Shown one piece after another: positions 9,340 to 37,437 of a stretch of DNA of 37,437 nucleotides (the first letter of the stretch is position 1; the number at the start of each line of letters is the position of its first letter). Source of the stretch: Bacteroidales bacterium (GTDB lineage Bacteria; Bacteroidota; Bacteroidia; Bacteroidales; UBA932); the NCBI GenBank assembly GCA_009784635.1, contig WRBG01000001.1:1-37437 (forward strand). The letters run 5' to 3'. A program made the position numbers and the translations under genes. Under the pieces are notes generated by a model. That model worked only from the letters and a program-made list of their open reading frames with translations. It did no database searches and was not told the origin of the DNA.

Positions 9340-11570
9340 CTCATCTTCCCCATTTGATTGCTGACCTCGGCTTGATTCTAATCATCGCCGGAGTCGTAAC
9401 CTTGATTTTCAAGTTTCTCAAACAGCCCTTGGTGCTGGGGTACATTGTGGCAGGAATTTTGGTCAGTCCCCATTTTATTGTGTTCCCTTCGGTCGCCGAT
9501 ATGAACAACATTAAAGTTTGGTCCGAAATCGGGGTAATCATTCTGCTTTTTGCTCATGGTATCGAATTTAGTTTCAAAAAGTTGCTCAATGTGGGAACCA
9601 CAGCTACGGTTGCGGGAGTCATCAGTATTGTGTCCATGCTGTTAATCGGCTATCTTGCCGGACTGATGATGGGATTGAGCGAAGTAGCGAGCATCTTTTT
9701 TGGGGGTATGTTGTCTATGTCGTCCACTACAATCATCATCAAGGCGTTTGGAGATATGGGCTGGCAAAAAAAACGATTTGCCCGTATCGTATGCGGGGTA
9801 TTGATTGTAGAAGACCTTGCCGCCATTCTGATGCTGGTTGTTTTCACCGCTTTGGCTACCGTTCATTCGGCCGGCGAATCAAATGCTGCCGACATTATAC
9901 ATACCACGCTGGTGTTGGGCGTATTTGTATTGACTTGCGGGGCCATCGGGATTTTCATCATTCCCACGCTGCTCAAAAAACTCAAGAAATTCCTTAGCGA
10001 TGAAACCCTGCTGATTATATCGCTCGGCCTGTGCCTCGGTATGGTTATTTTTTCGGACTATTTGGGATATTCGGTGGCATTGGGCGCGTTCATGATGGGG
10101 GCTATTTTGGCCGAGACCGTCGAGGCAAGGCGGATAGAATATCTGATTAATCCGCTGAAAGACCTTTTTGGGGCCATCTTTTTTGTGTCGGTCGGCATGA
10201 TGGTGGTTCCGGAAACATTGGTGGAGTACGCCGGCATCATTGCCATAGTTACGGTCATCGTGCTTGTGGGCAGGATTGTTTTTGACAGCCTTGGCGTACT
10301 TGCCTCGGGCGAAGGATTAAAAACTTCGCTGCAATCGGGTATGAGTTTGGCCCAAATCGGGGAGTTTTCCTTTATCATTGCCGTGGTGGGTATCAATTTG
10401 AGGGTGTTGGACGACTTCATCTTTGACGTAATCGTGGCGGTTTCTGTGATTACTACATTTACAACGCCTTACTGCATCAAATATTCGGAATCCTGTTATA
10501 AATTCATCGAAAAAAGATTTCCGGCTAAATGGCAGGTACTCATTTACGGATATGGAGCGTCTCAGTATAGGACCATCAACGAAATCTCCCATGTGAAGCA
10601 CATTTTAAAAACAACCCTGCCCCCGTTTTTTATCTACTCGTCGCTTTTGGGAGTGGTTGCCATTATATCGCAGCGCGTCATCGTTCCATACATCACAGAA
10701 CAAATACCTTCTACGATTGGCTCCCTGTTGGCGGCGACTGTATGTATCGGCGTCATGGCCCCGTTTATCTTTGCCATGGCCGGCCGGAAAAAAAGCAGGG
10801 AATTGTATAAAGAACTGTGGGATACCCACACGGTAAACAAAATAGTCATTCTTTCGGTAATACTTCTAAAACTTGCGGCATGCGTAGGTTTTGTGATGTA
10901 CATCCTGTTGTGGATTTTTCCTCAATACAAAGCCTTGATTTTGCTGGCCTCCATCATCATTATCACAGCCATTGTGATGATACAGGGCTTCATTGCCCAG
11001 TCAGACATCATGGAACAGCATTTTATTGATAACTTTCGCAATACGGAAGATGCCATTAACGAACGCAGCAAAAAACAGCTGACCAACAACAATATTCACA
11101 TTGAGGAAATCATTGTATCGCCCGACACCCCTATTGTGGGTAAAACGCTGGGAGAACTTGATTTATTCAATCGTACGGGAGCAAATATCGTCTCCATAGA
11201 AAGGGGTTCAGATAGAATCAATATCCCCGGCAGGGATACCATGATTTTTCCTTACGACAGGCTGATTGTAGCGGCTACCGACGAGGGATTGAACGACTTG
11301 ACTGCGGCATTAAGTGAAATCAGCAGCAAGCAAGCCGATTCTCCCAAGGAGCAAATCAACATATCTTTATACGAGATTGCCTCGGGAAATATGTATATCG
11401 GGAGGCAGATAAGCGAATTAGACCTGCGGGATAAACATCAATGTATGATTATCGGAATTGACAGGAACGAGAGTTCCATGCCCAGATTCTCCGGCGATAC
11501 CGTGCTTATGGAAGGAGATATATTGTGGCTGGCGGGAGAACAGGACAAATTAGACACGTTTGAGCTGTAA
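9336..11570 (+). CDS. CPA2-family cation:proton antiporter with two C-terminal RCK_C (TrkA-C) domains
   Basis: 744 aa. About 12 hydrophobic helices in the N-terminal 550 aa (Na+/H+ exchanger-like). Two RCK_C-like repeats follow: IVGKTLGELDLFNRTGANIVSIERG and YIGRQISELDLRDKHQCMIIGIDRN. The ATG overlaps the dxs stop (ATGA). Confidence 0.8.
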   Translation: MTHLPHLIADLGLILIIAGVVTLIFKFLKQPLVLGYIVAGILVSPHFIVFPSVADMNNIKVWSEIGVIILLFAHGIEFSFKKLLNVGTTATVAGVISIVSMLLIGYLAGLMMGLSEVASIFFGGMLSMSSTTIIIKAFGDMGWQKKRFARIVCGVLIVEDLAAILMLVVFTALATVHSAGESNAADIIHTTLVLGVFVLTCGAIGIFIIPTLLKKLKKFLSDETLLIISLGLCLGMVIFSDYLGYSVALGAFMMGAILAETVEARRIEYLINPLKDLFGAIFFVSVGMMVVPETLVEYAGIIAIVTVIVLVGRIVFDSLGVLASGEGLKTSLQSGMSLAQIGEFSFIIAVVGINLRVLDDFIFDVIVAVSVITTFTTPYCIKYSESCYKFIEKRFPAKWQVLIYGYGASQYRTINEISHVKHILKTTLPPFFIYSSLLGVVAIISQRVIVPYITEQIPSTIGSLLAATVCIGVMAPFIFAMAGRKKSRELYKELWDTHTVNKIVILSVILLKLAACVGFVMYILLWIFPQYKALILLASIIIITAIVMIQGFIAQSDIMEQHFIDNFRNTEDAINERSKKQLTNNNIHIEEIIVSPDTPIVGKTLGELDLFNRTGANIVSIERGSDRINIPGRDTMIFPYDRLIVAATDEGLNDLTAALSEISSKQADSPKEQINISLYEIASGNMYIGRQISELDLRDKHQCMIIGIDRNESSMPRFSGDTVLMEGDILWLAGEQDKLDTFEL

Positions 11571-12230: not shown

Positions 12231-13418
12231 ATGGCAAAAGAAACTTTTAAAAGGGACAAGCCGCACGTAAATGTTGGTACCATTGGTCACGTTGACCATG
12301 GCAAAACCACCCTAACTGCGGCTATCACCATGGTATTGGCAAAAAAAGGCCTTTCCGAGCAACGCTCGTTCGACTCTATTGACAACGCTCCCGAAGAAAA
12401 AGAGCGTGGTATCACCATCAACACTGCCCATGTTGAGTACCAAACAGCCAACCGCCACTATGCCCACGTAGACTGTCCGGGCCACGCCGACTATGTGAAA
12501 AACATGGTGACAGGCGCCGCTCAGATGGACGGCGCGATTATTGTGGTAGCCGCCACCGACGGCCCCATGCCCCAAACCCGCGAACACATTCTGCTGGCGC
12601 GTCAGGTGAACGTACCCCGTATTGTAGTATACCTCAACAAGGTTGACTTGGTTGACGACCCCGAAATGTTGGACCTTGTAGAAATGGAAGTACGCGAACT
12701 TTTGAGTTTCTACAGTTTTGACGGCGACAACGCCCCCGTAATCCGCGGGTCTGCTTTGGCCGCTCTGAACGGAGACGCCGAAGGAGAAGCCAAAGTGATG
12801 GAATTGATGGATGCTGTTGACTCTTACATTCCCATTCCTCCACGCGAAAACGAAAAACCTTTTGTAATGCCCGTAGAAGACGTGTTCTCTATCACCGGTC
12901 GCGGTACCGTGGCTACAGGACGTATTGAAACCGGCGTAATTAAAACAGGAGAAGAAGTGGAAGTCATTGGCTTGGGCGAAAAGCCGAGGAAAACAGTCGT
13001 TACCGGCGTAGAAATGTTCCGCAAAATCCTCGACAGAGGCGAAGCCGGCGACAACGTAGGTTTGCTCCTCCGTGGTATTGACAAAAAAGAAATCAAACGC
13101 GGACAGGTAATTGCAAAGCCCGGAACCATTACCCCCCACAAACTGTTCCAAGCTGAGATTTACGTGCTTAAGAAAGAAGAAGGCGGACGCCACACTCCTT
13201 TCCACAACAACTACCGTCCCCAATTCTTCCTGCGCACCCTTGACGTTACCGGTGAAATCCAACTCCCCGAAGGAGTAGAAATGGTTATGCCGGGCGATAA
13301 CGTATCTATCACCGTAGCTTTGATTTACCCCGTAGCCATCAACGAAGGACTCCGCTTTGCTATTCGCGAAGGAGGCCGCACCGTGGGCGCCGGACAGGTA
13401 ACCAAACTATTAGACTAA
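12231..13418 (+). CDS. tuf: Elongation factor Tu
   Basis: 395 aa. [17 protein letters not shown] and NKVD GTPase motifs, and Bacteroides-like over the full length. Confidence 0.98.
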
Positions 13419-24764: not shown

Positions 24765-25724
24765 ATGAGTACCTTACGCTTGGGCATCATTATTCCGGTT
24801 GGTTTGGGACTCTTTTGTGCGGCTTTGGTCGTGGCTTCTTGTGCAGGAAATAACCGAGACACCAAAAAACAAGAGGAAATCAAACGGTTTGTCCTCCCCA
24901 CTATTCCGTCTATGCTCTTGGTTCCGCAGGAAAGGGCCGACTACTTGGTAACGCACTATTGGAATCATTTTGATTTTTCCGACACCTCCCTCATACATCT
25001 GCCCGCTTATACCGAACAGGCTTTTAGGGATTACATAGATGTTTTACCCCATGCCCCTTACGCTTCTATCCTAGCCTCTGTGGAGCAAACGCTAAGTAAG
25101 GCGACAGGCAACAGGAACATGTTTACGCATTTTATCGAACTGTTTGAAAAATACCTGTATAATCCAAATTCCCCCTTGAGAAACGAGGAATTATATGCCC
25201 TTGCGGTGGAATATGTGATAAACTCCGACCAAATTGACGAAACAGATAAAATCCGCCTTAGGTATCAGTGGGAGCAAATCCAAAAAAACCGGCAAGGCTC
25301 TGTGGCCGCTGACTTTAGCTACTCGCTTATCAGCGGGGCACAGGAAAGGATGCACCGAATCCAAGCCGATTACCTCCTGCTCTTTCTCTACGACCCGGAT
25401 TGCCATTCCTGCGGAGAGATACTCCAAGGTATACATGCTTCTCCGGTGGTTGGGGAAGCCATCAACCGAGGCATATTAAAAGTGTTGGCCGTTTATGTAG
25501 CCAAAGATATAGAACGCTGGGAACAGTATCAAGTTGTTGTTCCCAAAACATGGATAAGCGCTTACGACCCCTTGCAGACCATTGAGCAAGAAAAACTCTA
25601 CGACCTGCGGGCCTTGCCTACCATGTATTTGTTGGACAAGCAAAAAAGGGTGCTGATTAAGGACGCCATCCAGCATCAAGTAGACCAACTGCTTGTGCAA
25701 GAATTACAAAAGCCGCCCTTTTAG
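24765..25724 (+). CDS. Thioredoxin-fold (TlpA/DUF5106-like) lipoprotein with a CHSC motif
   Basis: 319 aa. Signal peptide ending in a lipobox-like VVASC. The C-terminal third reads LLFLYDPDCHSCGE...ALPTMYLLD, the layout of a thioredoxin-like CxxC fold with a cis-Pro region. The family name is from memory, not a search. Confidence 0.6.
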   Translation: MSTLRLGIIIPVGLGLFCAALVVASCAGNNRDTKKQEEIKRFVLPTIPSMLLVPQERADYLVTHYWNHFDFSDTSLIHLPAYTEQAFRDYIDVLPHAPYASILASVEQTLSKATGNRNMFTHFIELFEKYLYNPNSPLRNEELYALAVEYVINSDQIDETDKIRLRYQWEQIQKNRQGSVAADFSYSLISGAQERMHRIQADYLLLFLYDPDCHSCGEILQGIHASPVVGEAINRGILKVLAVYVAKDIERWEQYQVVVPKTWISAYDPLQTIEQEKLYDLRALPTMYLLDKQKRVLIKDAIQHQVDQLLVQELQKPPF

Positions 25725-30167: not shown

Positions 30168-31487
30168 TTACTGTTCGCTAAAAATCTTCTTCAAAGGCAG
30201 GAACAGCCGCTCAAGCAGCCGCAGGTCCTCGGTAACGATTTCTGCCGTGGCATACATTTCTTGGTAAAAGGGCAATTCCCTGCCGTAGGTAGTCATCAGC
30301 TTATGGGGAAAACCGACTTCCAAGGTATAGAAGTCGCCCGAAGGCACTACCGAAATATTGCCCACCACGCCCCGCACAATGCCGTATTCCGTGTCGGGGA
30401 AATTCAAAAAACGGACATTGACCGACTGACCGGGTTTTACCTTGCCCGAGCCGGCAATAGGCAATTGGGCTTTGCCGACTATTTGTCCGGTGGTTTGGGG
30501 AATGATGGTAAAGACCGTTTCGCCGGCAGTGATGTTTTGGTTTACGTTCCAGAATTTGCTGACGTCCACCGTGCCGTCCACAGGCGTTTTGAGTACGTAG
30601 GTCATCTCCCATATATTAAAGGCGTTCATGAGGTTGTCCAATCCGGCTTTTACCTCTGCCTGCAACTGCCCCGATTTTTCCAACTCCTGCAACCTCAAAT
30701 CGAGGATGGATTGCCGTAACTGGTCAATTTGTATATGGGCGTTGTCCAAGGCTATTCGGGACGACTCCAAACCATACCTGCTTTGCAGGAAACTCATGAC
30801 AATGGCGTCGTGTTCTGCGTCCGAAATCATTTTTTGGACGTGTAGGCTTGAATCCCGTACATATTGCCGGTGCGCCAGCGCGTACTGTTGCTGCACTACT
30901 TGGTACTGCTTCTGTAGTTTCTCAAGGTATTGCTGCTGTTTCAAGATTTGTTCCTCCATGGCGGCAATCCGCCGAGGATAATAGTTTAGCTCGGCAAACA
31001 GGCGATAATGACCGGCCGCGCGGATAAAGCCCGTATAGGAAGCCTGTATGTCGCCCAATTCGTATTTGCGGTTAAGTTCGTCCGACGTAAAATGAATATG
31101 GTTGCCGCCCATCATCTCATGCCACGCCTCCAACTGCGCCCTCAACGCTCCAACGTCATCGCTGTTTGCCGGATTCTCAACCACAGCCAAATAATCGGAT
31201 GCTTGTACCGACTGCTTGTCTGTCACCAACATTCTGGTGATTTTGCCATTGACGCGGGCGTTGACCTGCACCGGCGGATTGTGGGATGTTACCAATATGG
31301 GCGCCTCAATAATGTCCGGATATTTATAGAACCAACTGCCTGCAAACAATGTAATTACTATTACAACCAGCACGCTAATCCCACTCCGTAATATCCAAGG
31401 CGGAACCCATCCCAATACTTCCTGTACTTCCTCGCTGCGGAGTTCGGGCAACTTTTTAACGCCTACTATTTCTTTCTTAGTTCCCAA
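30168..31487 (-). CDS. HlyD-family membrane fusion/secretion adaptor protein
   Basis: 439 aa. N-terminal TM helix (ISVLVVIVITLFAGSWF), a long Gln/Leu-rich coiled-coil middle and a beta-barrel-like C-terminus. The start overlaps the ABC gene end by 11 nt. Confidence 0.8.
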   Translation of the reverse strand: MGTKKEIVGVKKLPELRSEEVQEVLGWVPPWILRSGISVLVVIVITLFAGSWFYKYPDIIEAPILVTSHNPPVQVNARVNGKITRMLVTDKQSVQASDYLAVVENPANSDDVGALRAQLEAWHEMMGGNHIHFTSDELNRKYELGDIQASYTGFIRAAGHYRLFAELNYYPRRIAAMEEQILKQQQYLEKLQKQYQVVQQQYALAHRQYVRDSSLHVQKMISDAEHDAIVMSFLQSRYGLESSRIALDNAHIQIDQLRQSILDLRLQELEKSGQLQAEVKAGLDNLMNAFNIWEMTYVLKTPVDGTVDVSKFWNVNQNITAGETVFTIIPQTTGQIVGKAQLPIAGSGKVKPGQSVNVRFLNFPDTEYGIVRGVVGNISVVPSGDFYTLEVGFPHKLMTTYGRELPFYQEMYATAEIVTEDLRLLERLFLPLKKIFSEQ

Positions 31488-33681
31488 GTTCCAACTGATT
31501 TTTTACCAATTCATAATAAATGCCGCGCCGGTTGGCCAACTCTTCGTGCGTGCCCTGTTCGGCAACCTTTCCCTTGTCTAATACCACAATGTTGTCCGCA
31601 TTCCGAACAGTGCTTAGGCGATGCGCCACCACCACCACCGTCCTGCCTCGGTAAAACTTTTCGAGCCGCTCCATAATTTCCCGCTCATTCTTTGCGTCGA
31701 GCGAATTGGTGGCTTCGTCAAAGAAAATAAACTCCGGATTCTGATACACCGCACGGGCAATCAGAATGCGTTGTCGCTGCCCTTGACTTATGCCGTTGCC
31801 TTCCATACCGATTTTGGTATTGTAGCCCAAGGGAAGGGCGTCAATAAAATCCCCGATGTTGGCCATGGAGGTCGCCTCTACCAACCGTTCCTTATTCATA
31901 AGTTCGTCGCTCACGGCAATATTGTTGGCAATGGTATCCGAAAAAATGAAGCCGTCTTGAAGCACCGCCGCCGTTTTGGCCCGCCACACATGGGGGTTGA
32001 TGTTCTGAAGGCTTGTTTCTCCGATTTTGATGCTGCCCTTATTGGGCGGATAAAACCCCAGCATGAGCTTTACCAATGTGGTTTTTCCACTCCCGCTGGC
32101 CCCCACAATAGCCGTTACGCGGTTCTGCGGAACCGTGAGGCTGATGCCGTCCAACACATAATCGCGGTCGGCGCCGTCATAACTGAAATACAAGTCGTTG
32201 ATATGAATGGACTTGTCCTTGGGCAAGGAAGTCATGCTTGCGGCGCTTTGCTGGTCTTCGTCCTGTTTCAAATGCACTTCGCCCAAGCGTTCAAGGCTGA
32301 TTTTTGCATCCTGCCAAGCGCGGGCAAAACTGATAAACTGCTCGATGGGCGCGCTCACCTGTCCCACTATATAGGTCAGCGACATCATCATTCCAAGGGT
32401 CATCTGCCCGTCCACCACCGCCTTGGCCGCAATAAACGAAATCAAGATGCCCGTAGTCTGTCCAAAAAATACCGACCCCAATTGCTGGTACTGACCCAAC
32501 GCCATACCTTGTATACTGATTTTAAATTGCTTAACCTTAATGCGCTCCCATTCCCAGCGTTTTTGTTTCTCGCAATTGTTGAGTTTGATTTCCTGCATTC
32601 CGGTAATCAATTGCACAATATTACTCTGATTGGCAGACGCTTGTGCAAAACGCTTAAAGTCCAATTTGCGACGCCAGCGCATGAACGACAGCACCCAAAG
32701 CACATACAGCGTATTCCCGACCAAGAACACCATCAATACCATCAAGTTATAATACGCAAGGATGGCGCCGAAGACGAAGAAGTTGAACAGCGAAAAGATG
32801 ATGTTGAACGACGAACCGGTAAGGAAGGATTCAATGCGCCCATGGTCGCCAATCCGCTGCATAATATCGCCCACCATTTTTGTATCGAAGTAATTCATAG
32901 GCAACCGCATCAGCTTTGCCAAAAAATCCGATATAAGCGCTATGTTGATGCGGGTATTCATGTGGAGCATAATCCAACCGCGAATCAAATCAACCGAAAG
33001 CCGCGCCACAAACAGCACCAACTGCGCAATCAAAATCAAGGTGATAAAACTCAAGTTATGGTTGCGGATACCGTTGTCTACCAGCGCTTGGGTAAGGAAG
33101 GGGAAAATCATCTGCAACAAACTGCCCGCGAGCATGCCCAAGGCCAACTGTATCAACTGAGACTTGTAGGGACGCAGGTAGCGGAAGAAGAATCCAATAT
33201 TCTTATCATCAGCCTTTTTCTCATCGTCCATATCGTAAAACTCCGGCCCGGGTTGCAGGGCAAGCACCGTACCGCAATCTTTGCCCTCGACCTTGGTAAC
33301 GCCCCAGCAACGCATAAATTCTTTCTCGTTGTATGTCGCTAATCCGCGTGCAGGGTCGGCAACGTAGACCATGGTTTTACCTCCTTTGCGCTTTTTGACT
33401 TTATACACCACCACAAAATGGTTCTGATTCCAGTGGGCGATACAGGGCAAAGGCACATCGTTGCACAGTTGTTCAAAATTGATTTTCACCCCTGTGGTAC
33501 GGAATCCTATGGTTTCGGCCGCATCGCTGATGCCCAGCATACTCACGCCCTCCCGCGTAATAAAACTCCGCTGCCGCAGGGTTTGCAGGGTATAGCTGCG
33601 GCCATAATACTTGGCCACCATGCGCAGACAGGCAGGACCGCAGTCCATGGCGTCTAACTGGAGGGTAAAGGGAAAGCGCAT
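31477..33681 (-). CDS. Peptidase C39-containing ABC transporter (bacteriocin/double-glycine peptide exporter)
   Basis: 734 aa. C39 motifs QLDAMDCGPACL (catalytic Cys) and NHFVVVY (His). A six-helix TMD, then Walker A GASGSGKTT, signature ISQGQRQRI, Walker B IFFDEATNSLD and H-loop VAHRL. Confidence 0.92.
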   Translation of the reverse strand: MRFPFTLQLDAMDCGPACLRMVAKYYGRSYTLQTLRQRSFITREGVSMLGISDAAETIGFRTTGVKINFEQLCNDVPLPCIAHWNQNHFVVVYKVKKRKGGKTMVYVADPARGLATYNEKEFMRCWGVTKVEGKDCGTVLALQPGPEFYDMDDEKKADDKNIGFFFRYLRPYKSQLIQLALGMLAGSLLQMIFPFLTQALVDNGIRNHNLSFITLILIAQLVLFVARLSVDLIRGWIMLHMNTRINIALISDFLAKLMRLPMNYFDTKMVGDIMQRIGDHGRIESFLTGSSFNIIFSLFNFFVFGAILAYYNLMVLMVFLVGNTLYVLWVLSFMRWRRKLDFKRFAQASANQSNIVQLITGMQEIKLNNCEKQKRWEWERIKVKQFKISIQGMALGQYQQLGSVFFGQTTGILISFIAAKAVVDGQMTLGMMMSLTYIVGQVSAPIEQFISFARAWQDAKISLERLGEVHLKQDEDQQSAASMTSLPKDKSIHINDLYFSYDGADRDYVLDGISLTVPQNRVTAIVGASGSGKTTLVKLMLGFYPPNKGSIKIGETSLQNINPHVWRAKTAAVLQDGFIFSDTIANNIAVSDELMNKERLVEATSMANIGDFIDALPLGYNTKIGMEGNGISQGQRQRILIARAVYQNPEFIFFDEATNSLDAKNEREIMERLEKFYRGRTVVVVAHRLSTVRNADNIVVLDKGKVAEQGTHEELANRRGIYYELVKNQLELGN

Positions 33682-33700: not shown

Positions 33701-34477
33701 TTAGGAACGCGAAGATAGGAATTTTATTTGGATTTCCTGTTTTGAGCTGCTTTCTGTCTTAAATCGTTCGTACGATGATATTCTTTTTTGTGCAGATGAG
33801 GCAAACGAACTGTTCATCGCCCTTGGATGCGAGAGGTGGAATAAGCACGTATCTACCCAATGTGTCTTGAAACCAAGCCGTTCAAAGCGATAGCACCTGT
33901 CAAAATCATCGTCTCCCCAGCCGTAGTGCTTTTCATTTTCCATGCCTGCGTAGATATATTTCTCCCTGTTTACCAATACCGCCCCCCCGACCAAACTACG
34001 GTGGTGCAGTAACTCCATTTTGTCCATATGCCGATAAAGAACGCGGATATCCTTTCGCTTCATAAAAAGAGTGCGGAGTATTTCGGATGTATTGTAACAT
34101 GTTCCATTATACGGCCAAGCAACATCTGCCGTTTGGTTGCGCAGCATAGTTACCGCTTCAAGTACTGCTTTCTTGTCTACCACCACATCGGTATCCCAGA
34201 TGGCTATGTACGGAGTGGCTACATTAGGCGTCATGGCGTTAAAACGCCGCGTCTTGTACAGCACGGGGTCTTTATCTTCTTTAAACAGATAGTTTATTTT
34301 TCTGTTTAGCAATCTTTTAAGAACTTGATTATTGTAACCGGATGCTTCAACTACAGTTACATTCGTGTCGAAATACTTGAGCAAGGCCTCCGTTACCGTT
34401 AGCGTATTTTCTAATCGTTGTACCGAATCAAGCCGTACCAAAATGAGGAATGTTATGTCCTTTAAATCTACCTTCAT
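33701..34477 (-). CDS. GT-A fold glycosyltransferase, beta-1,4-galactosyltransferase-like (GT2/GT7C-type motifs)
   Basis: 258 aa from the internal Met MKVDLKDITFLILV. DxD motif IAIWDTDVVV, and HYGWGDDDFDRCYRFERLGF resembles the WGxEDDD..R block of beta4GalT-type enzymes. The track ORF start at 34531 would overlap the upstream gene. Confidence 0.65.
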   Translation of the reverse strand: MKVDLKDITFLILVRLDSVQRLENTLTVTEALLKYFDTNVTVVEASGYNNQVLKRLLNRKINYLFKEDKDPVLYKTRRFNAMTPNVATPYIAIWDTDVVVDKKAVLEAVTMLRNQTADVAWPYNGTCYNTSEILRTLFMKRKDIRVLYRHMDKMELLHHRSLVGGAVLVNREKYIYAGMENEKHYGWGDDDFDRCYRFERLGFKTHWVDTCLFHLSHPRAMNSSFASSAQKRISSYERFKTESSSKQEIQIKFLSSRS

Positions 34478-34482
34478 ATCTT

Positions 34483-35949
34483 TTACGCATGTTTTGATTT
34501 TGCATCGGTTAGCGCCATGAATACACCGCAAAGTCCGGAAAACAGCCCTCTATTCCGCATCAAGTACTCCGGTTCGCGTTCCACTAAAGTCCATATATCA
34601 GACGATTCTATCTTGTCGATTATTTTGGTGGTCCATTGCTGCACATCATTTTCCGAAAAGTATTTTTGCAAGGCAGACAGCAACAGGTAGACTCCGGAAG
34701 CACCACCGTCTATGTAGATATTCCTGCTCCTTAATTCTTCATCAAGAATCATATTGACGTCGAGCCTGTCTTTAAGCAGTTGGATATGACTACTCCATCC
34801 GCCTACATCAATGTGCCGCATTACCGAATCCATACCCCACATCAAGAACAATCGGTTGGCATGAAGTCGTGGGAGCATAGACAGCACGTACATGCCGACA
34901 TCTTCCAATATCTTAACTATGCGGTAATTATAAAAATTTAACTCATATATCCTGCCAAGCACAAACAGAAATTGTGGCAACAGGTAGTTAAATCCGTAAA
35001 GTGGCGGTTCTTCAAAAAATGAAGCATCTGCTTTTTGATAGATATGGTTTACCGTTGCAATTATCAATTCTCGATAGAGGTACTCCGATTCGCTTCCCTC
35101 CTTTTGGTCATTAATCCGGAGGCACAAGTAATATAGAATCTGAATGAGTGACAGTGAGTTGATATTGTCCAAGTAAATTGAATAGCTCAACTGCTTGAAT
35201 ATCGCATTATCCACATCGCCAAGTATCTCGTTGGGACTCCCTTTGGCGTGGGACTCCTTTAGCAGGTAGCGAATAGCCAGCCCTATTCCCGCCAATCCAT
35301 TCATCAGATCTATACTCCTTGTTTGAGAGGCCTCATTAAAAACCTCCTCCAACAGGTTTTCGGCTACTTCCTGATACTTCTTGTTCTTTTCATGCCTCGC
35401 CAGCCAAAAGGCAAAGAGGCAAAAGCCCATTTTCCCGTTTGCCAAGCCTAAGGGGGCATCTTGGCTAAAGGAACTCATTAGGCGGTCCTTTAACGAAGGT
35501 GTTTCCAATAGTTGGTAGTGCGCAGCATCCCACCCAATTCCGAATTGATTCAATGGTTTCCATGCCCCTCCCCATTCAAGCCCTGCTTCGATACCCAGTC
35601 GACCAAAGGAAAGCCACAATTGGGCATTTTCCTCGGTAATCGCCCAAGGGATACTGCCATCGGCTAATATCGGTACAATATCGGCAGCAACTCCGTCTTG
35701 GTGAAGAGTGTGTCTAACTTTTGTAATAATTTGTTTCGCTTTTTCTGCGTCAAGTAAGTGCAGTCCAGCTATTTTGCGAAGACGGTTGATTTCTTCTATG
35801 CTCTCCCTGCCTTGGGCGTAATAAGCATCTTGAACTTCTTGTGTGCGAATGGTTTCAAGAATAAGGTATCGCAATCCGTTCCTGTCAAGCACAGAAAGAA
35901 ATGCTTCAAATATCGGTTGCGCTTCTGGCTTTAATAAATTGATTTTCAT
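34483..35949 (-). CDS. Fusion protein: N-terminal M15 (VanY/endolysin-type) zinc peptidase plus C-terminal LanC-like alpha/alpha-repeat domain
   Basis: 488 aa. The N-terminal ~150 aa carry ETIRTQEVQ, the H-x6-D motif TLHQDGVAADIVP, WGGAW and GWDAAHYQL, a complete M15 zinc ligand set. The C-terminal ~320 aa carry spaced Gly-rich helix starts resembling LanC repeats: GLANGKMGFCLFAFWL, NGLAGIGLAIRYL, DGGASGVYLLLSAL and GLFSGLCGVFMAL. The canonical CHG zinc motif was not found. No signal peptide. Confidence 0.55.
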   Translation of the reverse strand: MKINLLKPEAQPIFEAFLSVLDRNGLRYLILETIRTQEVQDAYYAQGRESIEEINRLRKIAGLHLLDAEKAKQIITKVRHTLHQDGVAADIVPILADGSIPWAITEENAQLWLSFGRLGIEAGLEWGGAWKPLNQFGIGWDAAHYQLLETPSLKDRLMSSFSQDAPLGLANGKMGFCLFAFWLARHEKNKKYQEVAENLLEEVFNEASQTRSIDLMNGLAGIGLAIRYLLKESHAKGSPNEILGDVDNAIFKQLSYSIYLDNINSLSLIQILYYLCLRINDQKEGSESEYLYRELIIATVNHIYQKADASFFEEPPLYGFNYLLPQFLFVLGRIYELNFYNYRIVKILEDVGMYVLSMLPRLHANRLFLMWGMDSVMRHIDVGGWSSHIQLLKDRLDVNMILDEELRSRNIYIDGGASGVYLLLSALQKYFSENDVQQWTTKIIDKIESSDIWTLVEREPEYLMRNRGLFSGLCGVFMALTDAKSKHA

Positions 35950-37235
35950 AACATAATTACTCCAAATTGAGAGGAAAACACTATAGTACTGCTAATACTA
36001 TTATAGTCACTGTACATTATAAGCCCTTTACGCAGCATTATACGTGCATATCGCTGAATATGAAGGTGTAGATTTTTTTGTAACTGTTCCGTTTTGAGCA
36101 AGAGCGCTTCATAAAAATGCTTTGGGCGTGGGATGATATAAGTAAGTACCAAACTTTCGGTCAGAGAAAGTTCGGAATATGGCTTGCCAAAGTAAAGCAG
36201 GCTGGCATGATGCAGTCCATATACATTGGGGGCAAACTCAATCAAGTTCAAATACAATTCTAAAATATCTTCTTTTTCTATCTTGAAATAGTTCTCTATC
36301 AACAACGCAATCACACACTCTTCCACCTTGCGAAGTATGTTCTTATCATGGTTAAGAAAAAGATTTCGTACCAATTGCATAGTGATGGTGCTGGCGCCTC
36401 TCTCGAATTTCATGCTGTTGAAGTTGGCCAATAAAGCAAGGTCGATGCCATAAAGATCTATTCCTTTATGAATCCCAAAATTGGGGTCTTCCGTACATAT
36501 TACGGCATTGGCTACATGCTCCGGAATCGTTTTGTAGGGAATATAGCCTTCAGCTGTAAAATAGCTGCCGCCGTGTTTGGCAAAGAGGGTATTGAGTAGA
36601 AATTGCTTGTCAACTTGGACACTATTTTCGTGGGTTAGCTCAAAGTCATCCGCTTTTATGGAAGCATTAAACCAAACCGGCTGCGCACTATTTTTAGCGT
36701 AAGCAAGGATAGCATTGATTAGCAGGGGAATATCCGAATAGAAATTTTGGAGATGGCTAAATATCAAGTTATCACCCATGATAGAAATGTATTTGTCCCA
36801 ATTTAAACTTAACTCAGAAAATACTTTTATTTGTCCGGCCTTTCGCTGAGTTTGTACTATTAACATTATTTCGTTGGCTTCAATATGGATAGTTGCATTT
36901 TTTCTATTGACTCCGAGGGTAATAAGAATATCCGATAATGCAAACTTCTTTTTAGCAATAATTTCCCAATTTGTGCTAAAGTGCTCAACCATAATCTCTC
37001 CTACCAACCAGCCCCCGGTTATGCTTTGCCATAAAGACAACTTGAAGATTATACGTTCTACGCGGACTATCTCTTTCTGTTCACGGCTGGTTATAACCAC
37101 ATTACTTAACAGCAACTTTCTAAGACCAAGCAGACGTACTGTTTGAACGGAAACGGAAAGCCCAAACCTGCCTAATAGTCGTGTAGACAATGATTGAATA
37201 CGTGAGGAGATTTTATGTTCGAGGTAACACTTCAT
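35946..37235 (-). CDS. Atypical GT51 (peptidoglycan glycosyltransferase) domain protein with an unknown ~230-aa N-terminal domain
   Basis: 429 aa. From about residue 233: IPEHVANAVICTEDPNFGIHKGID (EDxxFxxHxG), RGASTITMQLVRNLFL (GGSTITQQ) and RKVEECVIALLIENYFKIEKEDILELYLNLIEF (RKxxE...ILE.YLN). Both GT51 catalytic Glu positions appear present. The N-terminal region has no motif I recognise and no clear TM anchor. A 4-nt ATGA overlap with the downstream gene. Confidence 0.65.
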   Translation of the reverse strand: MKCYLEHKISSRIQSLSTRLLGRFGLSVSVQTVRLLGLRKLLLSNVVITSREQKEIVRVERIIFKLSLWQSITGGWLVGEIMVEHFSTNWEIIAKKKFALSDILITLGVNRKNATIHIEANEIMLIVQTQRKAGQIKVFSELSLNWDKYISIMGDNLIFSHLQNFYSDIPLLINAILAYAKNSAQPVWFNASIKADDFELTHENSVQVDKQFLLNTLFAKHGGSYFTAEGYIPYKTIPEHVANAVICTEDPNFGIHKGIDLYGIDLALLANFNSMKFERGASTITMQLVRNLFLNHDKNILRKVEECVIALLIENYFKIEKEDILELYLNLIEFAPNVYGLHHASLLYFGKPYSELSLTESLVLTYIIPRPKHFYEALLLKTEQLQKNLHLHIQRYARIMLRKGLIMYSDYNSISSTIVFSSQFGVIML

Positions 37236-37250
37236 TTTTCCATGCCGCTA

Positions 37251-37437
37251 TTACTCTTTACTCTCCCGCGCCTTTTTAGACTTGTAATGTTTTAGCAAAA
37301 AGTCATATACCACCGCCTCGTGCATACGTTGTTTGCTGCGGAACCAGCGGTTCATCATCATGTGGGTGTAGCTCGATAACAGGGCATTGAGCTTTTCGCC
37401 TTTTTCTACATGCTCCATGATTTGACCGGCAATCGGC
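37251..37437 (-). CDS. 3' end of an unidentified CDS entering from the right edge
   Basis: Hand translation of the minus strand in the frame ending at TAA (37253-37251) gives PIAGQIMEHVEKGEKLNALLSSYTHMMMNRWFRSKQRMHEAVVYDFLLKHYKSKKARESKE with no internal stop. It is absent from the track only because the remaining Met-initiated part is under 60 aa. It lies 15 nt upstream of the GT51 gene. Confidence 0.4.
   Translation of the reverse strand, partial: PIAGQIMEHVEKGEKLNALLSSYTHMMMNRWFRSKQRMHEAVVYDFLLKHYKSKKARESKE

What the first reader, a model, noticed from the sequence alone, without database searches (positions are those of the whole stretch)
35946..37235. GT51 transglycosylase domain without membrane anchor, fused to a ~230-aa domain of unknown function
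The C-terminal ~195 aa (about 35949-36539) contain GT51 motifs 1-3, including both catalytic glutamates (TEDPNF and RKVEE). Known GT51 enzymes (class A PBPs, MtgA) are anchored by an N-terminal TM helix next to the domain and polymerise lipid II outside the membrane (established). Here the domain is preceded by a 230-aa soluble-looking region (36540-37235) with no motif I recognise and no clear hydrophobic anchor. No transpeptidase domain follows. Some motif positions deviate (GAST for GGST, TMQ for TQQ). It could be a lipid-II-binding or lipid-II-modifying module repurposed for immunity, for product synthesis or as a decoy.
Basis: partly seen in the sequence, partly recalled or inferred. Interest (0 to 1): 0.7.

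Follow-up and report, generated by a model that had tools for sequence, protein, structure and literature searches.

The report
Anchorless cell-wall polymerase in bacteriocin clusters
An enzyme type that normally builds the bacterial cell wall from outside the membrane has here lost its membrane anchor and is a conserved, undescribed part of peptide-antibiotic gene clusters in Bacteroidota, apparently working inside the cell alongside sugar-adding and wall-trimming enzymes.

Summary
ORF 35946-37235 (-) encodes 429 aa: an intact GT51 domain (Pfam E 3e-45; both catalytic glutamates invariant in 33 homologues; TM 0.85 to Aquifex PBP1a) after a 225-aa beta-rich domain, with no TM helix or signal peptide. 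The N-domain is a shortened AsmA/DUF748-like region. Ordinary Bacteroidota GT51 paralogues are TM + AsmA-like + GT51, and the window protein aligns from just after their TM helix (hhalign 93.7%). The anchorless clade is not housekeeping: 18 of 21 sampled contexts carry LanB, radical-SAM, PCAT or HlyD genes within 10 kb, against 0 of 151 ordinary GT51 loci. It recurs with a nucleotide-sugar glycosyltransferase and a signal-peptide-less peptidoglycan hydrolase (M15/VanY, amidase, CHAP or deacetylase; fused or adjacent), and in Bacteroidales with a Zn-less LanC-like protein. So the module probably acts on the cytoplasmic side, most plausibly on lipid II. Its purpose is unresolved. I favour building a trimmed peptidoglycan-type glycan for the exported peptide (0.35) over self-immunity by precursor editing (0.25). 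I found no paper describing it. It is a new variant of a known enzyme family and worth experimental follow-up.

The parts
35946..37235 (-). Whole gene: anchorless AsmA-like + GT51 protein, 429 aa (stop codon 35946-35948)
   Evidence: ORF. Full-length homologues at 35-68% identity. Confident two-domain model, pLDDT 90.8 and pTM 0.86.
37170..37232 (-). N-terminal cationic amphipathic helix, aa 2-22 (KCYLEHKISSRIQSLSTRLLG). It corresponds to the helix that follows the TM segment in anchored relatives.
   Evidence: Helix 2-22 in both models. Hydrophobic moment 0.55 against a protein-wide mean of 0.23 (sd 0.12); family median 0.43 with net charge +4. hhalign places it just after the TM helix of anchored paralogues.
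36561..37235 (-). N-domain, aa 1-225: about ten long beta-strands, a shortened AsmA/DUF748/YhdP-like region without the TM anchor
   Evidence: Model pLDDT 83.8. 7 of 17 members give sub-threshold YhdP or DUF748 hits. hhalign to the N-regions of TM-anchored GT51 proteins: 93.7%, E 1.9e-7. No significant PDB fold match. Only 32 representatives among 1.84e9 proteins.
35949..36551 (-). GT51 peptidoglycan glycosyltransferase domain, aa 229-429; catalytic E249 (36489-36491) and E306 (36318-36320)
   Evidence: PF00912 E 3.1e-45. Aligns to Aquifex PBP1a. Foldseek 3nb6 TM 0.85. Invariant motif residues. Codons checked.
34483..35949 (-). Next gene, translationally coupled (ATGA overlap): M15 peptidoglycan peptidase (aa 1-150) fused to a Zn-less LanC-like domain (aa 151-488)
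   Evidence: Pfam Peptidase_M15_4 and LANC_like. Weak similarity to the ChiX and Ply500 L-Ala-D-Glu peptidases. The same M15 domain is fused to the C-terminus of GT51 in P0005 and many other homologues. The catalytic His and the Cys, Cys and His Zn ligands are absent compared with a true LanC.
33701..34477 (-). GT-A fold (GT2 / Glyco_transf_7C-like) nucleotide-sugar glycosyltransferase, 258 aa from the ATG at 34477
   Evidence: Pfam hits are sub-threshold here, but the orthologue in L005 is above threshold. Weak similarity to beta4GalT7. Orthologues lie next to the GT51 gene in L003, L005, L088, L089 and L090.
31477..33681 (-). Peptidase-containing ABC transporter (PCAT) with the C39 catalytic Cys motif
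   Evidence: NCBIfam bacteriocin ABC exporter families, E about 1e-134. N-terminus 'LDAMDCGPACLRM'.
30168..31487 (-). HlyD/AprE-type membrane fusion protein of the exporter
   Evidence: TIGR01843 E 4e-31.
37251..37437 (-). 3' end of a split LanB dehydratase C-terminal (SpaB_C) gene, cut by the end of the contig
   Evidence: PF14028 E 9e-10, matching the end of the profile. The syntenic locus L088 shows LanB_N, LanB_C, GT51, M15-LanC-like.

Best explanation
WHAT IT IS (confidence about 0.85). This is the anchor-deleted, catalytically intact member of a Bacteroidota-specific GT51 family whose ordinary members are TM helix + AsmA-like region + GT51. The anchorless clade is a dedicated accessory of peptide natural-product clusters that carry GG-leader precursors, LanB or radical-SAM enzymes, and PCAT/HlyD exporters. 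It works as a set with a nucleotide-sugar GT-A glycosyltransferase and a peptidoglycan hydrolase that has no signal peptide. In Bacteroidales the set also includes a Zn-less LanC-like protein.

HOW IT MOST LIKELY WORKS (inferred; confidence 0.35 for the whole chain).
1. The protein stays on the cytoplasmic side.
2. Its cationic amphipathic helix and the open beta-sheet of the AsmA-like domain hold it at the inner leaflet and accommodate the undecaprenyl tail of lipid II, which MurG makes there.
3. The GT51 domain uses lipid II as glycosyl donor. E306 and the basic residues act on the pyrophosphate leaving group, and E249 activates the acceptor 4-OH.
4. The GT-A enzyme supplies or extends the acceptor sugar.
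5. The hydrolase removes or shortens the stem peptide, or deacetylates the sugar. In this window that enzyme is the M15 domain encoded by the next gene.
6. The resulting trimmed peptidoglycan-type glycan is attached to the leader-bearing precursor peptide, possibly presented by the LanC-like domain, before the PCAT cleaves the leader and exports the product.

The logic is that of siderophore-microcins: a primary-metabolite-derived tag is built by a glycosyltransferase plus a hydrolase and put on a GG-leader peptide.

SHOWN: domain identity, intact catalytic residues, absence of an anchor, homology to anchored paralogues, conserved gene partnership, and absence of signal peptides in the partners.
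INFERRED: the compartment, lipid II as the substrate, the peptide as the final acceptor, and the biological purpose.
For: Catalytic competence:
- Pfam E 3e-45.
- All motif residues are invariant in 33 homologues and in 52 clade members.
- The fold matches PDB 3nb6 with TM 0.85.

Anchor loss is a clade property:
- 0 of 22 clade loci have an N-terminal hydropathy above 2.0, against 115 of 143 ordinary loci; 18 of the remaining 28 ordinary ORFs are truncated.
- hhalign aligns window residues 8-86 to residues 36-114 of anchored proteins, immediately after their TM helix (93.7%, E 1.9e-7).
- The anchored proteins hit DUF748, AsmA or YhdP starting from their TM helix.

Dedicated to peptide clusters:
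- 18 of 21 independent contexts have LanB, rSAM, C39 or HlyD genes within 10 kb, against 0 of 151 controls, Fisher p = 1e-21.
- Real GG-leader, Cys-rich precursors are present.
- In the window the gene lies between LanB_C and the M15-LanC-like gene and is translationally coupled to the latter.

Cytoplasmic set:
- Standalone VanY-like, deacetylase and CHAP partners have no signal peptide. The two deacetylases begin directly with the TFDDG/SFDDG catalytic motif.
- GT-A partners need cytoplasmic nucleotide sugars.
- LanB is tRNA-dependent and therefore cytoplasmic (established knowledge).
- M15 is fused either to GT51 or to the LanC-like protein, which ties these three to one place.
- In L008 the anchorless GT51 sits beside a MurG-type GT28 together with GT1, GT2 and GT9 genes.

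The tailoring model is the only one that gives every recurring component a job.
Against: - No GT51 is known to act in the cytoplasm or on a non-lipid acceptor (my knowledge; no paper found).
- The basic residues and motifs around the active site are as conserved as in the housekeeping paralogues. The only nearby differences are conservative switches such as T285/S and R290/K, so nothing points to a changed acceptor.
- The module accompanies chemically different peptide classes (LanB, rSAM, VKOR/thioredoxin disulfide type) and once an NRPS. That pattern fits a scaffold-independent role such as immunity better than tailoring.
- Several clusters show no detectable GT-A or LanC-like gene (L087, L092).
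- Non-homologous hydrolases with different bond specificities replace one another, which is odd for a defined product structure.
- A few cluster-associated long forms keep a short hydrophobic N-terminus (L009, L172-L174), so the topology may not be uniform.
- Absence of a signal peptide does not exclude holin-type or piggy-back export.
- No product has been observed.
Confidence: 0.35

Rival explanations
1. Self-immunity by editing the producer's own wall precursors. The cytoplasmic module alters lipid II before it is flipped, so that the producer's wall or lipid II is not recognised by its own exported peptide. The alterations could be stem-peptide trimming by M15/VanY, amidase or CHAP, deacetylation, or an extra sugar from the GT-A enzyme. 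Known examples of this strategy are VanX/VanY in glycopeptide producers and FemABX-type Lif/Epr in lysostaphin producers.
For: - The module accompanies chemically unrelated peptide classes and one NRPS, as expected for a function that depends on the target and not on the scaffold.
- M15/VanY-type enzymes in antibiotic clusters are a known self-resistance device (my knowledge).
- No other immunity gene is recognisable in such Bacteroidales clusters (PMC10352776).
- In L001 the module travels with an exporter on an integrase-flanked element, as bacteriocin-immunity cassettes often do.
- The three module genes have lower GC (0.39-0.44) than the exporter genes (0.50).
Against: - It gives no role to a catalytically intact GT51. 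Polymerising lipid II on the wrong side of the membrane would waste it.
- Removing whole stem peptides from the precursor pool would block cross-linking.
- The targets of these peptides are unknown, and the one studied Bacteroidales peptide toxin family acts on BamA, not on lipid II (my recollection of Coyne et al. 2019; the paper is cited in PMC10352776 but I did not read it here).
Confidence: 0.25
2. A separate lipid-linked glycan product. The anchorless GT51, with GT-A/GT-B partners and the hydrolase, assembles a peptidoglycan-like, stem-less glycan or glycolipid on undecaprenyl pyrophosphate at the cytoplasmic face, in the manner of ABC-transporter-dependent polysaccharide synthesis. This product is exported independently of the peptide and is merely co-regulated with it, for example as a protective or decoy layer.
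For: - L008 has the anchorless GT51 with MurG-type GT28, GT1, GT2 and GT9 genes and a MacB-type ABC permease, and no peptide genes.
- L171 has Mannosyl_trans3 next to the GT51 gene.
- All lipid-II-binding motif residues are retained.
Against: Most clusters have no polysaccharide-type exporter or flippase, only the PCAT/HlyD pair. The tight operon position between LanB and the LanC-like gene in the window and in L088 also argues against an independent product.
Confidence: 0.12
3. Secretion-associated wall editing. The GT51 protein and its hydrolase partner reach the periplasm by a non-classical route, such as a holin as for Serratia ChiX/ChiW or the PCAT itself. There they open and re-seal peptidoglycan locally so that the PCAT-MFP-OMP exporter or its cargo can pass.
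For: - The feature shared by nearly all contexts is the exporter, not the peptide chemistry.
- The best sequence hit in the PDB for the window's M15 domain is ChiX, a signal-less secretion endopeptidase, though only at E 0.27.
- Swapping between non-homologous wall hydrolases is typical where any wall-cutting activity will do.
Against: - No holin-like gene is evident in the clusters.
- The GT51 N-terminus has no GG-leader motif, and helix 2-22 is an integral, confidently modelled part of the fold.
- The constant GT-A partners need cytoplasmic nucleotide sugars and have no role in this model.
- Type I-like exporters are not known to need wall remodelling (my knowledge).
Confidence: 0.1
4. Non-catalytic lipid II binder or decoy. 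The GT51 domain only binds lipid II or the peptide product and no longer catalyses glycosyl transfer.
For: The protein is anchorless, and the cytoplasm is an unusual place for a polymerase.
Against: Both catalytic glutamates and every other motif residue are invariant across 52 diverged clade members (30-68% identity), to the same degree as in the housekeeping paralogues. That pattern indicates selection for catalysis.
Confidence: 0.05
5. An ordinary housekeeping monofunctional transglycosylase (MtgA-like) that happens to lie next to a lanthipeptide cluster, with a mis-called start hiding its anchor.
For: Sources name some relatives 'biosynthetic peptidoglycan transglycosylase'.
Against: - The MtgA equivalog score is below its cut-off, 124 against 183.
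- There is no room for an N-terminal extension.
- 33 of 33 relatives lack an anchor.
- Synteny with RiPP genes is conserved across orders of Bacteroidota, and 0 of 151 ordinary GT51 loci share it.
- The housekeeping form exists separately as TM + AsmA-like + GT51.
Confidence: 0.02

Closest known systems
GT51 peptidoglycan glycosyltransferases (class A PBP glycosyltransferase domain; MtgA)
   Same: Same fold and all five sequence motifs, including both catalytic glutamates. It is 36% identical to the Aquifex PBP1a glycosyltransferase domain with TM 0.85.
   Different: There is no TM anchor next to the domain, no transpeptidase domain, and a 225-aa AsmA-like domain instead. Scores are below every NCBIfam equivalog cut-off. 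It is embedded in a peptide natural-product operon, and its partners lack signal peptides, which implies the cytoplasmic side.
Bacteroidota TM + AsmA-like + GT51 paralogues (unnamed family; for example Phocaeicola plebeius L021 and Flavobacterium L011/L014)
   Same: The N-region is homologous (hhalign 93.7%). The GT51 domain shares the 'TMQ' motif 2 and all catalytic residues.
   Different: The paralogues have a strong TM helix (hydropathy 2.2-2.9) and an N-region of about 430 aa, and they have no RiPP neighbours (0 of 151). The window protein has no TM helix, a 225-aa N-region, its own conserved C-terminal signature (Y366, R370, A377, Q384, N388, H392), and RiPP or export neighbours.
rSAM + 'LanC-like' + 'CAZyme' clusters of Bacteroidales (PMC10352776, BGC3-5)
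   Same: Same kind of cluster: GG-leader precursors, radical SAM enzymes, PCAT, LanC-like proteins lacking the Zn motif, and adjacent carbohydrate-active enzymes. My loci L003, L005, L089 and L090 are of this type.
   Different: The words 'transglycosylase' and 'peptidoglycan' do not occur in that paper, and it does not discuss the anchor loss. It also reports LanB as absent from Bacteroidales genomes, whereas the window and L088 combine the module with a split LanB.
Siderophore-microcins (class IIb; MccE492 MceC/D/I/J with the MceG/MceH exporter). Comparison from my own knowledge.
   Same: A GG-leader peptide exported by a PCAT + MFP pair. A glycosyltransferase and a hydrolase rework a primary-metabolite-derived moiety that is attached to the peptide in the cytoplasm. 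This is how I think the module may work.
   Different: There the moiety is a glucosylated enterobactin derivative, not a wall precursor, and the enzymes are not homologous to those here. For the present module, attachment to the peptide has not been shown.
Glycocins (SunA/SunS/SunT type). Comparison from my own knowledge.
   Same: A GT-A (GT2) enzyme glycosylates a Cys-rich GG-leader peptide before PCAT export.
   Different: The window's GT2 shows no specific similarity to SunS-type enzymes; its best PDB hits are beta4GalT7 and generic GT2 enzymes. No glycocin system contains a GT51.
Precursor-editing self-resistance (VanX/VanY in glycopeptide producers; Lif/Epr FemABX in lysostaphin producers). 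Comparison from my own knowledge.
   Same: Wall-precursor-modifying enzymes encoded inside an antimicrobial gene cluster, including M15-family peptidases.
   Different: None of these systems includes a GT51 or a GT-A partner, and the targets of the present peptides are unknown.

Membership tests
GT51 (Pfam PF00912 Transgly) | Profile match above the curated threshold | tested here: met
   154.2 bits against a cut-off of 27, E 3.1e-45, aa 229-377.
GT51 (Pfam PF00912 Transgly) | Conserved motifs with both catalytic glutamates (EDxxFxxHxG, GxSTITQQ, RKxxE, KxxILxxYxN) | tested here: met
   TEDPNFGIHKG, GASTITMQ, RKVEE and KEDILELYLN are present. E249 and E306 are invariant. The only deviation is Q to M at the first Gln of motif 2, which is shared with the housekeeping Bacteroidota paralogues.
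GT51 (Pfam PF00912 Transgly) | Lysozyme-like helical GT51 fold | tested here: met
   Foldseek against 3nb6, 2oqo and 3vmq: E 9e-13 to 3e-9, TM 0.69-0.85 normalised to the target.
GT51 (Pfam PF00912 Transgly) | N-terminal TM helix that places the domain on the outer face of the membrane | tested here: not met
   Maximum 19-residue hydropathy is 1.17. 0 of 33 relatives and 0 of 22 clade loci have an anchor, against 115 of 143 ordinary loci.
GT51 (Pfam PF00912 Transgly) | Polymerises lipid II; inhibited by moenomycin | not testable with these tools
   Requires an enzyme assay.
MtgA (NCBIfam TIGR02070 equivalog) | Score above the equivalog cut-off; about 240 aa consisting of TM + GT51 only | tested here: not met
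   124.1 bits against a cut-off of 182.65. The architecture differs.
Class A penicillin-binding protein | GT51 domain followed by a transpeptidase domain | tested here: not met
   No PF00905 match. TIGR02074 scores 145.7 against a cut-off of 508.75. The protein ends about 30 aa after the GT51 fold.
AsmA-like clan (AsmA / DUF748 / YhdP), for the N-domain | Profile match above threshold | tested here: inconclusive
   DUF748 scores 15-17 bits against a cut-off of 50. 7 of 17 members give sub-threshold YhdP or DUF748 hits. The link is indirect: hhalign gives 93.7% to anchored GT51 proteins, and those proteins hit DUF748 or AsmA at E 2e-7 to 1e-2.
AsmA-like clan (AsmA / DUF748 / YhdP), for the N-domain | Beta-taco fold with a hydrophobic groove; N-terminal TM anchor | tested here: inconclusive
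   The model is a run of long antiparallel strands, but Foldseek finds no significant PDB match. The best hit is JlpA with TM 0.35; LptA, LPD-3 and ApoB hits are weak. The TM anchor is absent.
Class I lanthipeptide gene cluster (context) | LanB dehydratase present | tested here: met
   The tail of Lant_dehydr_C lies at 37251-37437, E 9e-10. The syntenic L088 has LanB_N and LanB_C.
Class I lanthipeptide gene cluster (context) | LanC cyclase with the catalytic His and the Cys, Cys and His Zn ligands | tested here: not met
   The LanC-like domain at 34483-35499 lacks all of these positions when aligned to the true LanC of L009. A real LanC could lie beyond the end of the contig.
Class I lanthipeptide gene cluster (context) | Precursor peptide | not tested
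   The contig ends inside LanB_C, so the region upstream of LanB where the precursor is expected is not in the window. GG-leader precursors are seen in related loci.
Glycocin or siderophore-microcin-type tailoring (functional analogy) | A glycan or metabolite moiety covalently attached to the exported peptide | not testable with these tools
   Requires mass spectrometry of the product.

The most novel reading that the evidence does not exclude
A GT51 enzyme has been moved to the cytoplasmic face of the membrane, where it takes the disaccharide(-peptide) from lipid II and, with a GT-A glycosyltransferase and a stem-peptide hydrolase, installs a peptidoglycan-fragment tag on ribosomal peptides before export. 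The products would be 'muropeptide-conjugated' bacteriocins, which could exploit the amino-sugar and muropeptide uptake systems of competing Bacteroidota as a Trojan horse. This would be the first GT51 acting inside the cell, the first acting on a non-lipid acceptor, and a new class of RiPP modification present in human gut and oral Bacteroidales.
Probability: 0.2. Interest if true: 0.92.

Novelty: new variant of a known kind. Interest (0 to 1): 0.72.

Why it matters
GT51 glycosyltransferases are a textbook example of enzymes that work only on the outer face of the cytoplasmic membrane, and they are a validated antibiotic target (moenomycin). A conserved clade that has deleted its anchor, kept every catalytic residue, and travels with signal-less wall hydrolases and nucleotide-sugar transferases inside peptide-antibiotic operons implies an unrecognised use of lipid II chemistry on the cytoplasmic side. 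The purpose could be a new kind of peptide modification or a new kind of producer self-protection.

The clusters concerned include the abundant rSAM + 'LanC-like' clusters of human-associated Bacteroides, Parabacteroides and Tannerella. Their products, immunity and 'CAZyme' genes are all uncharacterised (PMC10352776). Knowing that these genes form a lipid II-directed module turns an annotation gap into concrete experiments: product mass shift, a lipid II assay and an immunity transfer test.

The work also uncovers a phylum-wide TM + AsmA-like + GT51 architecture that links a lipid-transfer-type domain to wall polymerisation.

Tried and rejected
- **Reference-genome scan** with the family alignment: it returned almost only ordinary GT51 genes, with no close relative of the window. 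I reused these loci as a control set.
No longer contig carrying a close LanB-type relative was found, so the window's own precursor peptide remains unseen.
- **Foldseek of the full model**: the GT51 half dominated, so I refolded the N-domain alone. It still had no significant PDB match.
- **Shorter gene call starting at M82** (P0001, 348 aa): rejected, because homologues align from residue 1 and the N-domain folds confidently.
- **Hidden anchor upstream:** rejected. The previous gene stops 15 nt before the ATG.
- **GG-leader in the GT51 N-terminus** (which would allow PCAT export): none is present. Only a single conserved Gly follows helix 2-22.
- **'TMQ/GAST' as a sign of an altered active site:** rejected, because M286 is invariant in the housekeeping paralogues too.
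- **LanC-like partner as a true cyclase:** rejected. All Zn ligands and the catalytic His are missing.
- **GT2 partner as a SunS-type glycocin transferase:** no specific similarity found.
- **Precursor in the 925-bp gap of L001:** only a doubtful 50-aa ORF containing 'ALGG'.
- **Literature:** eight full-text searches, and targeted reading of three RiPP or lanthipeptide mining papers, found no mention of a transglycosylase in these clusters.
- **Not available:** DeepTMHMM and SignalP. Topology therefore rests on hydropathy, sequence inspection and comparison with anchored paralogues.

Full report

Yes. A 429-aa ORF occupies 35946-37235 on the minus strand. Pfam PF00912 (Transgly) matches aa 229-377 at E 3.1e-45. 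NCBIfam gives only sub-threshold hits to PBP1A, MtgA and PBP1C models: MtgA scores 124 bits against a cut-off of 183, and PBP_1a scores 146 against 509.

Motifs 1-3 read CTEDPNFGIHK, RGASTITMQL and RKVEE, with E249 at 36489-36491 and E306 at 36318-36320. They align residue-for-residue with the crystallised Aquifex PBP1a glycosyltransferase domain. In an alignment of 33 full-length homologues (31-68% identity), E249, D250, P251, H256, G258, R279, G280, S282, M286, Q287, N291, R302, K303, E305, E306, K321, Y328 and N330 are invariant.

An AlphaFold2 model built on that alignment is confident (pLDDT 90.8, pTM 0.86). Its C-terminal half superposes on PDB 3nb6 and 2oqo with TM 0.84-0.85 and 36% identity, and on S. 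aureus MtgA.

The protein has no hydrophobic segment; the maximum 19-residue Kyte-Doolittle value is 1.17. The same holds for all 33 relatives. The upstream gene ends 15 nt before the ATG, so there is no hidden extension.

**2. What the N-terminal 225 residues are.**

The model shows a helix (aa 2-22) followed by about ten long beta-strands. Folded alone (pLDDT 83.8), the domain has no significant match in the PDB. The best hit is the open-sheet lipoprotein JlpA (TM 0.35), with weak hits to LptA, LPD-3 and ApoB.

At sequence level, 7 of 17 family members give sub-threshold hits to the AsmA-clan families YhdP or DUF748. The decisive link came from the control set. Ordinary Bacteroidota GT51 proteins (Flavobacterium, Pontibacter, Larkinella, Phocaeicola plebeius and others) are 640-770 aa, begin with a strong TM helix (hydropathy 2.2-2.9), and have a region of about 430 aa that hits DUF748, AsmA or YhdP starting from the TM helix (E 2e-7 to 1e-2) before the GT51 domain. 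A profile-profile comparison aligns window residues 8-86 with residues 36-114 of these proteins, immediately after their TM helix (93.7%, E 1.9e-7).

The window protein is therefore an anchor-deleted, shortened derivative of a TM + AsmA-like + GT51 family. The retained first helix is cationic and amphipathic: its hydrophobic moment is 0.55 against a protein-wide mean of 0.23, and the family median is 0.43 with net charge +4. The short N-domain type is rare, with only 32 representatives (E ≤ 1e-3) among 1.84 billion.

**3. It is not a housekeeping gene.**

In the window the gene is one of a tightly packed minus-strand series:
- the tail of LanB_C,
- the GT51 protein,
- an M15-LanC-like fusion (ATGA overlap with the GT51 stop),
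- a GT2/7C-like glycosyltransferase,
- a PCAT,
- HlyD.

Beyond this series lie ordinary chromosomal genes of an uncultured Bacteroidales bacterium, including 2-oxoacid:ferredoxin oxidoreductase, gdhA and rpoBC. RpoB is 86-87% identical to Bacteroidales and Rikenellaceae MAGs.

I sampled 21 independent genomic contexts of the clade most similar to the window's GT51 domain. They were the window, L001, L003, L005, L007-L009, L087-L096 and L171-L174. Eighteen contain LanB, radical-SAM, C39-PCAT or HlyD/AprE genes within 10 kb. The three exceptions are:
- L007, which lies at a contig end,
- L171, next to an NRPS,
- L008, a glycosyltransferase cluster.

With the same test, 0 of 151 ordinary GT51 loci do (Fisher p = 1e-21). 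L088, whose GT51 protein is 56% identical to the window's, has the same gene order: LanB_N, LanB_C, GT51, M15-LanC-like. Sphingobacterium anhuiense (L009) has a GT51 protein inside a complete class I lanthipeptide cluster with a typical precursor and a true LanC.

Clear GG-leader, Cys-rich precursors are present in L005, L087, L089, L090, L172, L173 and L174. Loss of the anchor tracks this association: 0 of 22 clade loci have an N-terminal hydropathy above 2.0, against 115 of 143 ordinary loci, and 18 of the remaining 28 ordinary ORFs are truncated.

**4. The recurring partners and the compartment.**

Three kinds of gene recur with the anchorless GT51.

(a) A peptidoglycan-modifying hydrolase. 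The types seen are M15_4 or VanY, Amidase_2, Amidase_3, polysaccharide deacetylase and CHAP. It appears in one of three arrangements:
- fused to the GT51 C-terminus (P0002, P0003, P0005, P0008, P0050, P0067 and others),
- fused to the N-terminus of the LanC-like protein (window, L088, P0255),
- as a separate gene (L007, L090, L172-L174; L001 has a CHAP-like motif only).

(b) A GT-A fold nucleotide-sugar glycosyltransferase: GT2/7C, GT25-like or Mannosyl_trans3.

(c) In Bacteroidales, a LanC-like protein of about 340 aa. It lacks the catalytic His and all three Zn ligands when aligned to a true LanC, in agreement with PMC10352776.

None of the standalone hydrolases has a signal peptide, and the two deacetylases start directly with the catalytic TFDDG/SFDDG motif. 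GT-A enzymes and LanB use cytoplasmic substrates. The alternative fusions of M15 to GT51 or to the LanC-like protein tie these components together. The simplest reading is that the whole module, including the GT51 domain, works on the cytoplasmic side. The only GT51-type substrate available there is lipid II, made at the inner leaflet by MurG. In L008 the anchorless GT51 lies next to a MurG-type GT28 and several other glycosyltransferases.

**5. Active site compared with the paralogues.**

Comparing 52 clade sequences with 108 anchored paralogues, every catalytic and motif residue is conserved in both groups. The clade has its own invariant residues in the C-terminal helices (Y366, R370, A377, Q384, N388, L389, H392, F420) and a few switches (T285/S, R290/K, I324/M, F334/W, A335/G, L378/F). 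This argues for retained catalysis under clade-specific selection. It gives no clear sign of a changed acceptor.

**6. Mechanism.**

Shown:
- an intact GT51 domain,
- no anchor,
- descent from AsmA-like anchored paralogues,
- obligate association with peptide clusters,
- cytoplasm-type partners.

Inferred: the amphipathic helix and the AsmA-like sheet place the enzyme at the inner leaflet and hold the polyprenyl tail. The GT51 domain then uses lipid II. With the GT-A enzyme and the hydrolase it produces a trimmed peptidoglycan-type glycan.

Where that glycan goes is open. I rank attachment to the precursor peptide before PCAT export first (0.35), because it is the only model that employs every recurring component. 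It also has a functional precedent in siderophore-microcins (my knowledge).

Self-immunity through precursor editing comes second (0.25). It fits the spread across unrelated peptide classes and the VanY and FemABX precedents, but it leaves the GT51 without a role.

The remaining models rank lower:
- an independent lipid-linked glycan product (0.12),
- secretion-associated wall editing after non-classical export (0.10),
- a non-catalytic decoy (0.05),
- a coincidental housekeeping enzyme (0.02).

**7. Comparison with the literature.**

A 2023 survey of Bacteroidales RiPP clusters describes rSAM + LanC-like clusters whose LanC-like proteins lack the Zn motif and lie near 'CAZymes'. The terms transglycosylase and peptidoglycan do not appear in it, and it reports LanB as absent from Bacteroidales (PMC10352776). 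Large lanthipeptide surveys do not mention a transglycosylase either (PMC7268733, PMC3091789). Further searches found nothing. The library holds only open-access papers, so a description elsewhere cannot be excluded.

**8. Verdict.**

The finding is real and more interesting than a single odd protein. It is the window's copy of a conserved, undescribed clade of anchorless GT51 enzymes that forms a wall-precursor-directed module inside Bacteroidota peptide-antibiotic clusters. It belongs to the GT51 family by sequence, motifs and fold. It fails the family's topological hallmark and is neither MtgA nor a class A PBP. I rate it a new variant of a known kind, with interest 0.72. The biological role needs experiments.

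Noticed in passing
window 37251-37437 (-); L088 499-3602: A split LanB dehydratase (separate Lant_dehydr_N and Lant_dehydr_C genes) occurs in an uncultured Bacteroidales genome. A 2023 survey of 1,136 Bacteroidales genomes reported LanB as completely absent from the order (PMC10352776). The window contig ends inside this gene, so the precursor and the rest of the cluster are missing.
   Followed up: partly
L010, L011, L014, L016, L021, L044 (GT51 ORFs around 8600-10900) and about 110 further loci: Ordinary Bacteroidota monofunctional GT51 proteins have a TM helix, an AsmA/DUF748/YhdP-like region of about 430 aa and then GT51, with an invariant 'TMQ' in motif 2. I did not find a description of a lipid-transfer-type domain placed between the anchor and a wall polymerase.
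   Followed up: partly
window 34483-35949 (-): A fusion of an M15 (ChiX/Ply500-like) peptidoglycan peptidase to a LanC-like domain that lacks the catalytic His and all Zn ligands. The LanC-like family is small (37 clusters at 90% identity), restricted to Bacteroidales and almost entirely unnamed.
   Followed up: partly
window 33701-37235 versus 30168-33681 and 1-30000: The three module genes have distinctly lower GC than the adjacent PCAT and HlyD genes and the rest of the contig: GT51 0.39, M15-LanC-like 0.44 and GT2 0.43, against 0.50 and 0.49. This suggests the module has a different origin from the exporter.
   Followed up: no
L001 1999-16607 (and L002): Here a CHAP-like gene, GT51, GT2 and a convergent PCAT + HlyD pair sit on an apparent integrative element (tyrosine integrase, RhuM, AbiEii, Toprim primase, excisionase-like HTH). 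No LanB or rSAM gene is present, and the only precursor candidate is a doubtful 50-aa ORF at 12592-12744.
   Followed up: partly
L008 2477-12440 (Puia sp. MAG): An anchorless long-form GT51 lies among GT9, a GT1/UDPGT-type enzyme, GT2, a MurG-type GT28 outside any visible dcw cluster, and a MacB/FtsX ABC permease. This looks like a glycolipid or glycan assembly locus with no peptide genes.
   Followed up: partly
L171 1-11872 (Chitinophaga ginsengisegetis): An anchorless long-form GT51 (P0111) is divergently adjacent to two very large NRPS genes and next to a Mannosyl_trans3 gene. The association may therefore extend beyond ribosomal peptides.
   Followed up: no
L172 6124-7710; L174 21207-21827: The Pedobacter and Mucilaginibacter clusters carry a C39 peptidase fused to VKOR, or a VKOR-thioredoxin protein, beside Cys-rich GG-leader precursors. 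These are disulfide-type bacteriocin clusters that contain the same GT51 + hydrolase pair.
   Followed up: no
L005 785-958 and 4944-5117; L089 4176-4376; L090 1408-1701: In the Bacteroidales rSAM-type clusters the core peptide begins with an aromatic residue directly after the GG cleavage site (GG|YTINC, GG|YKCVK, GG|YTCEK, GG|YFVCAGG). L087 (GG|FYGSD) is similar.
   Followed up: no
window 35946-37235 (P0001): The public collection's gene call for this ORF is 348 aa, starting at M82. That call cuts off the amphipathic helix and the first beta-hairpins of the N-domain, and homologues show the 429-aa form is correct.
   Followed up: yes
window 24765-25724 (+): A DUF5106 + thioredoxin-like protein is encoded directly downstream of rpoC, between the RNA polymerase operon and gdhA.
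   Followed up: no
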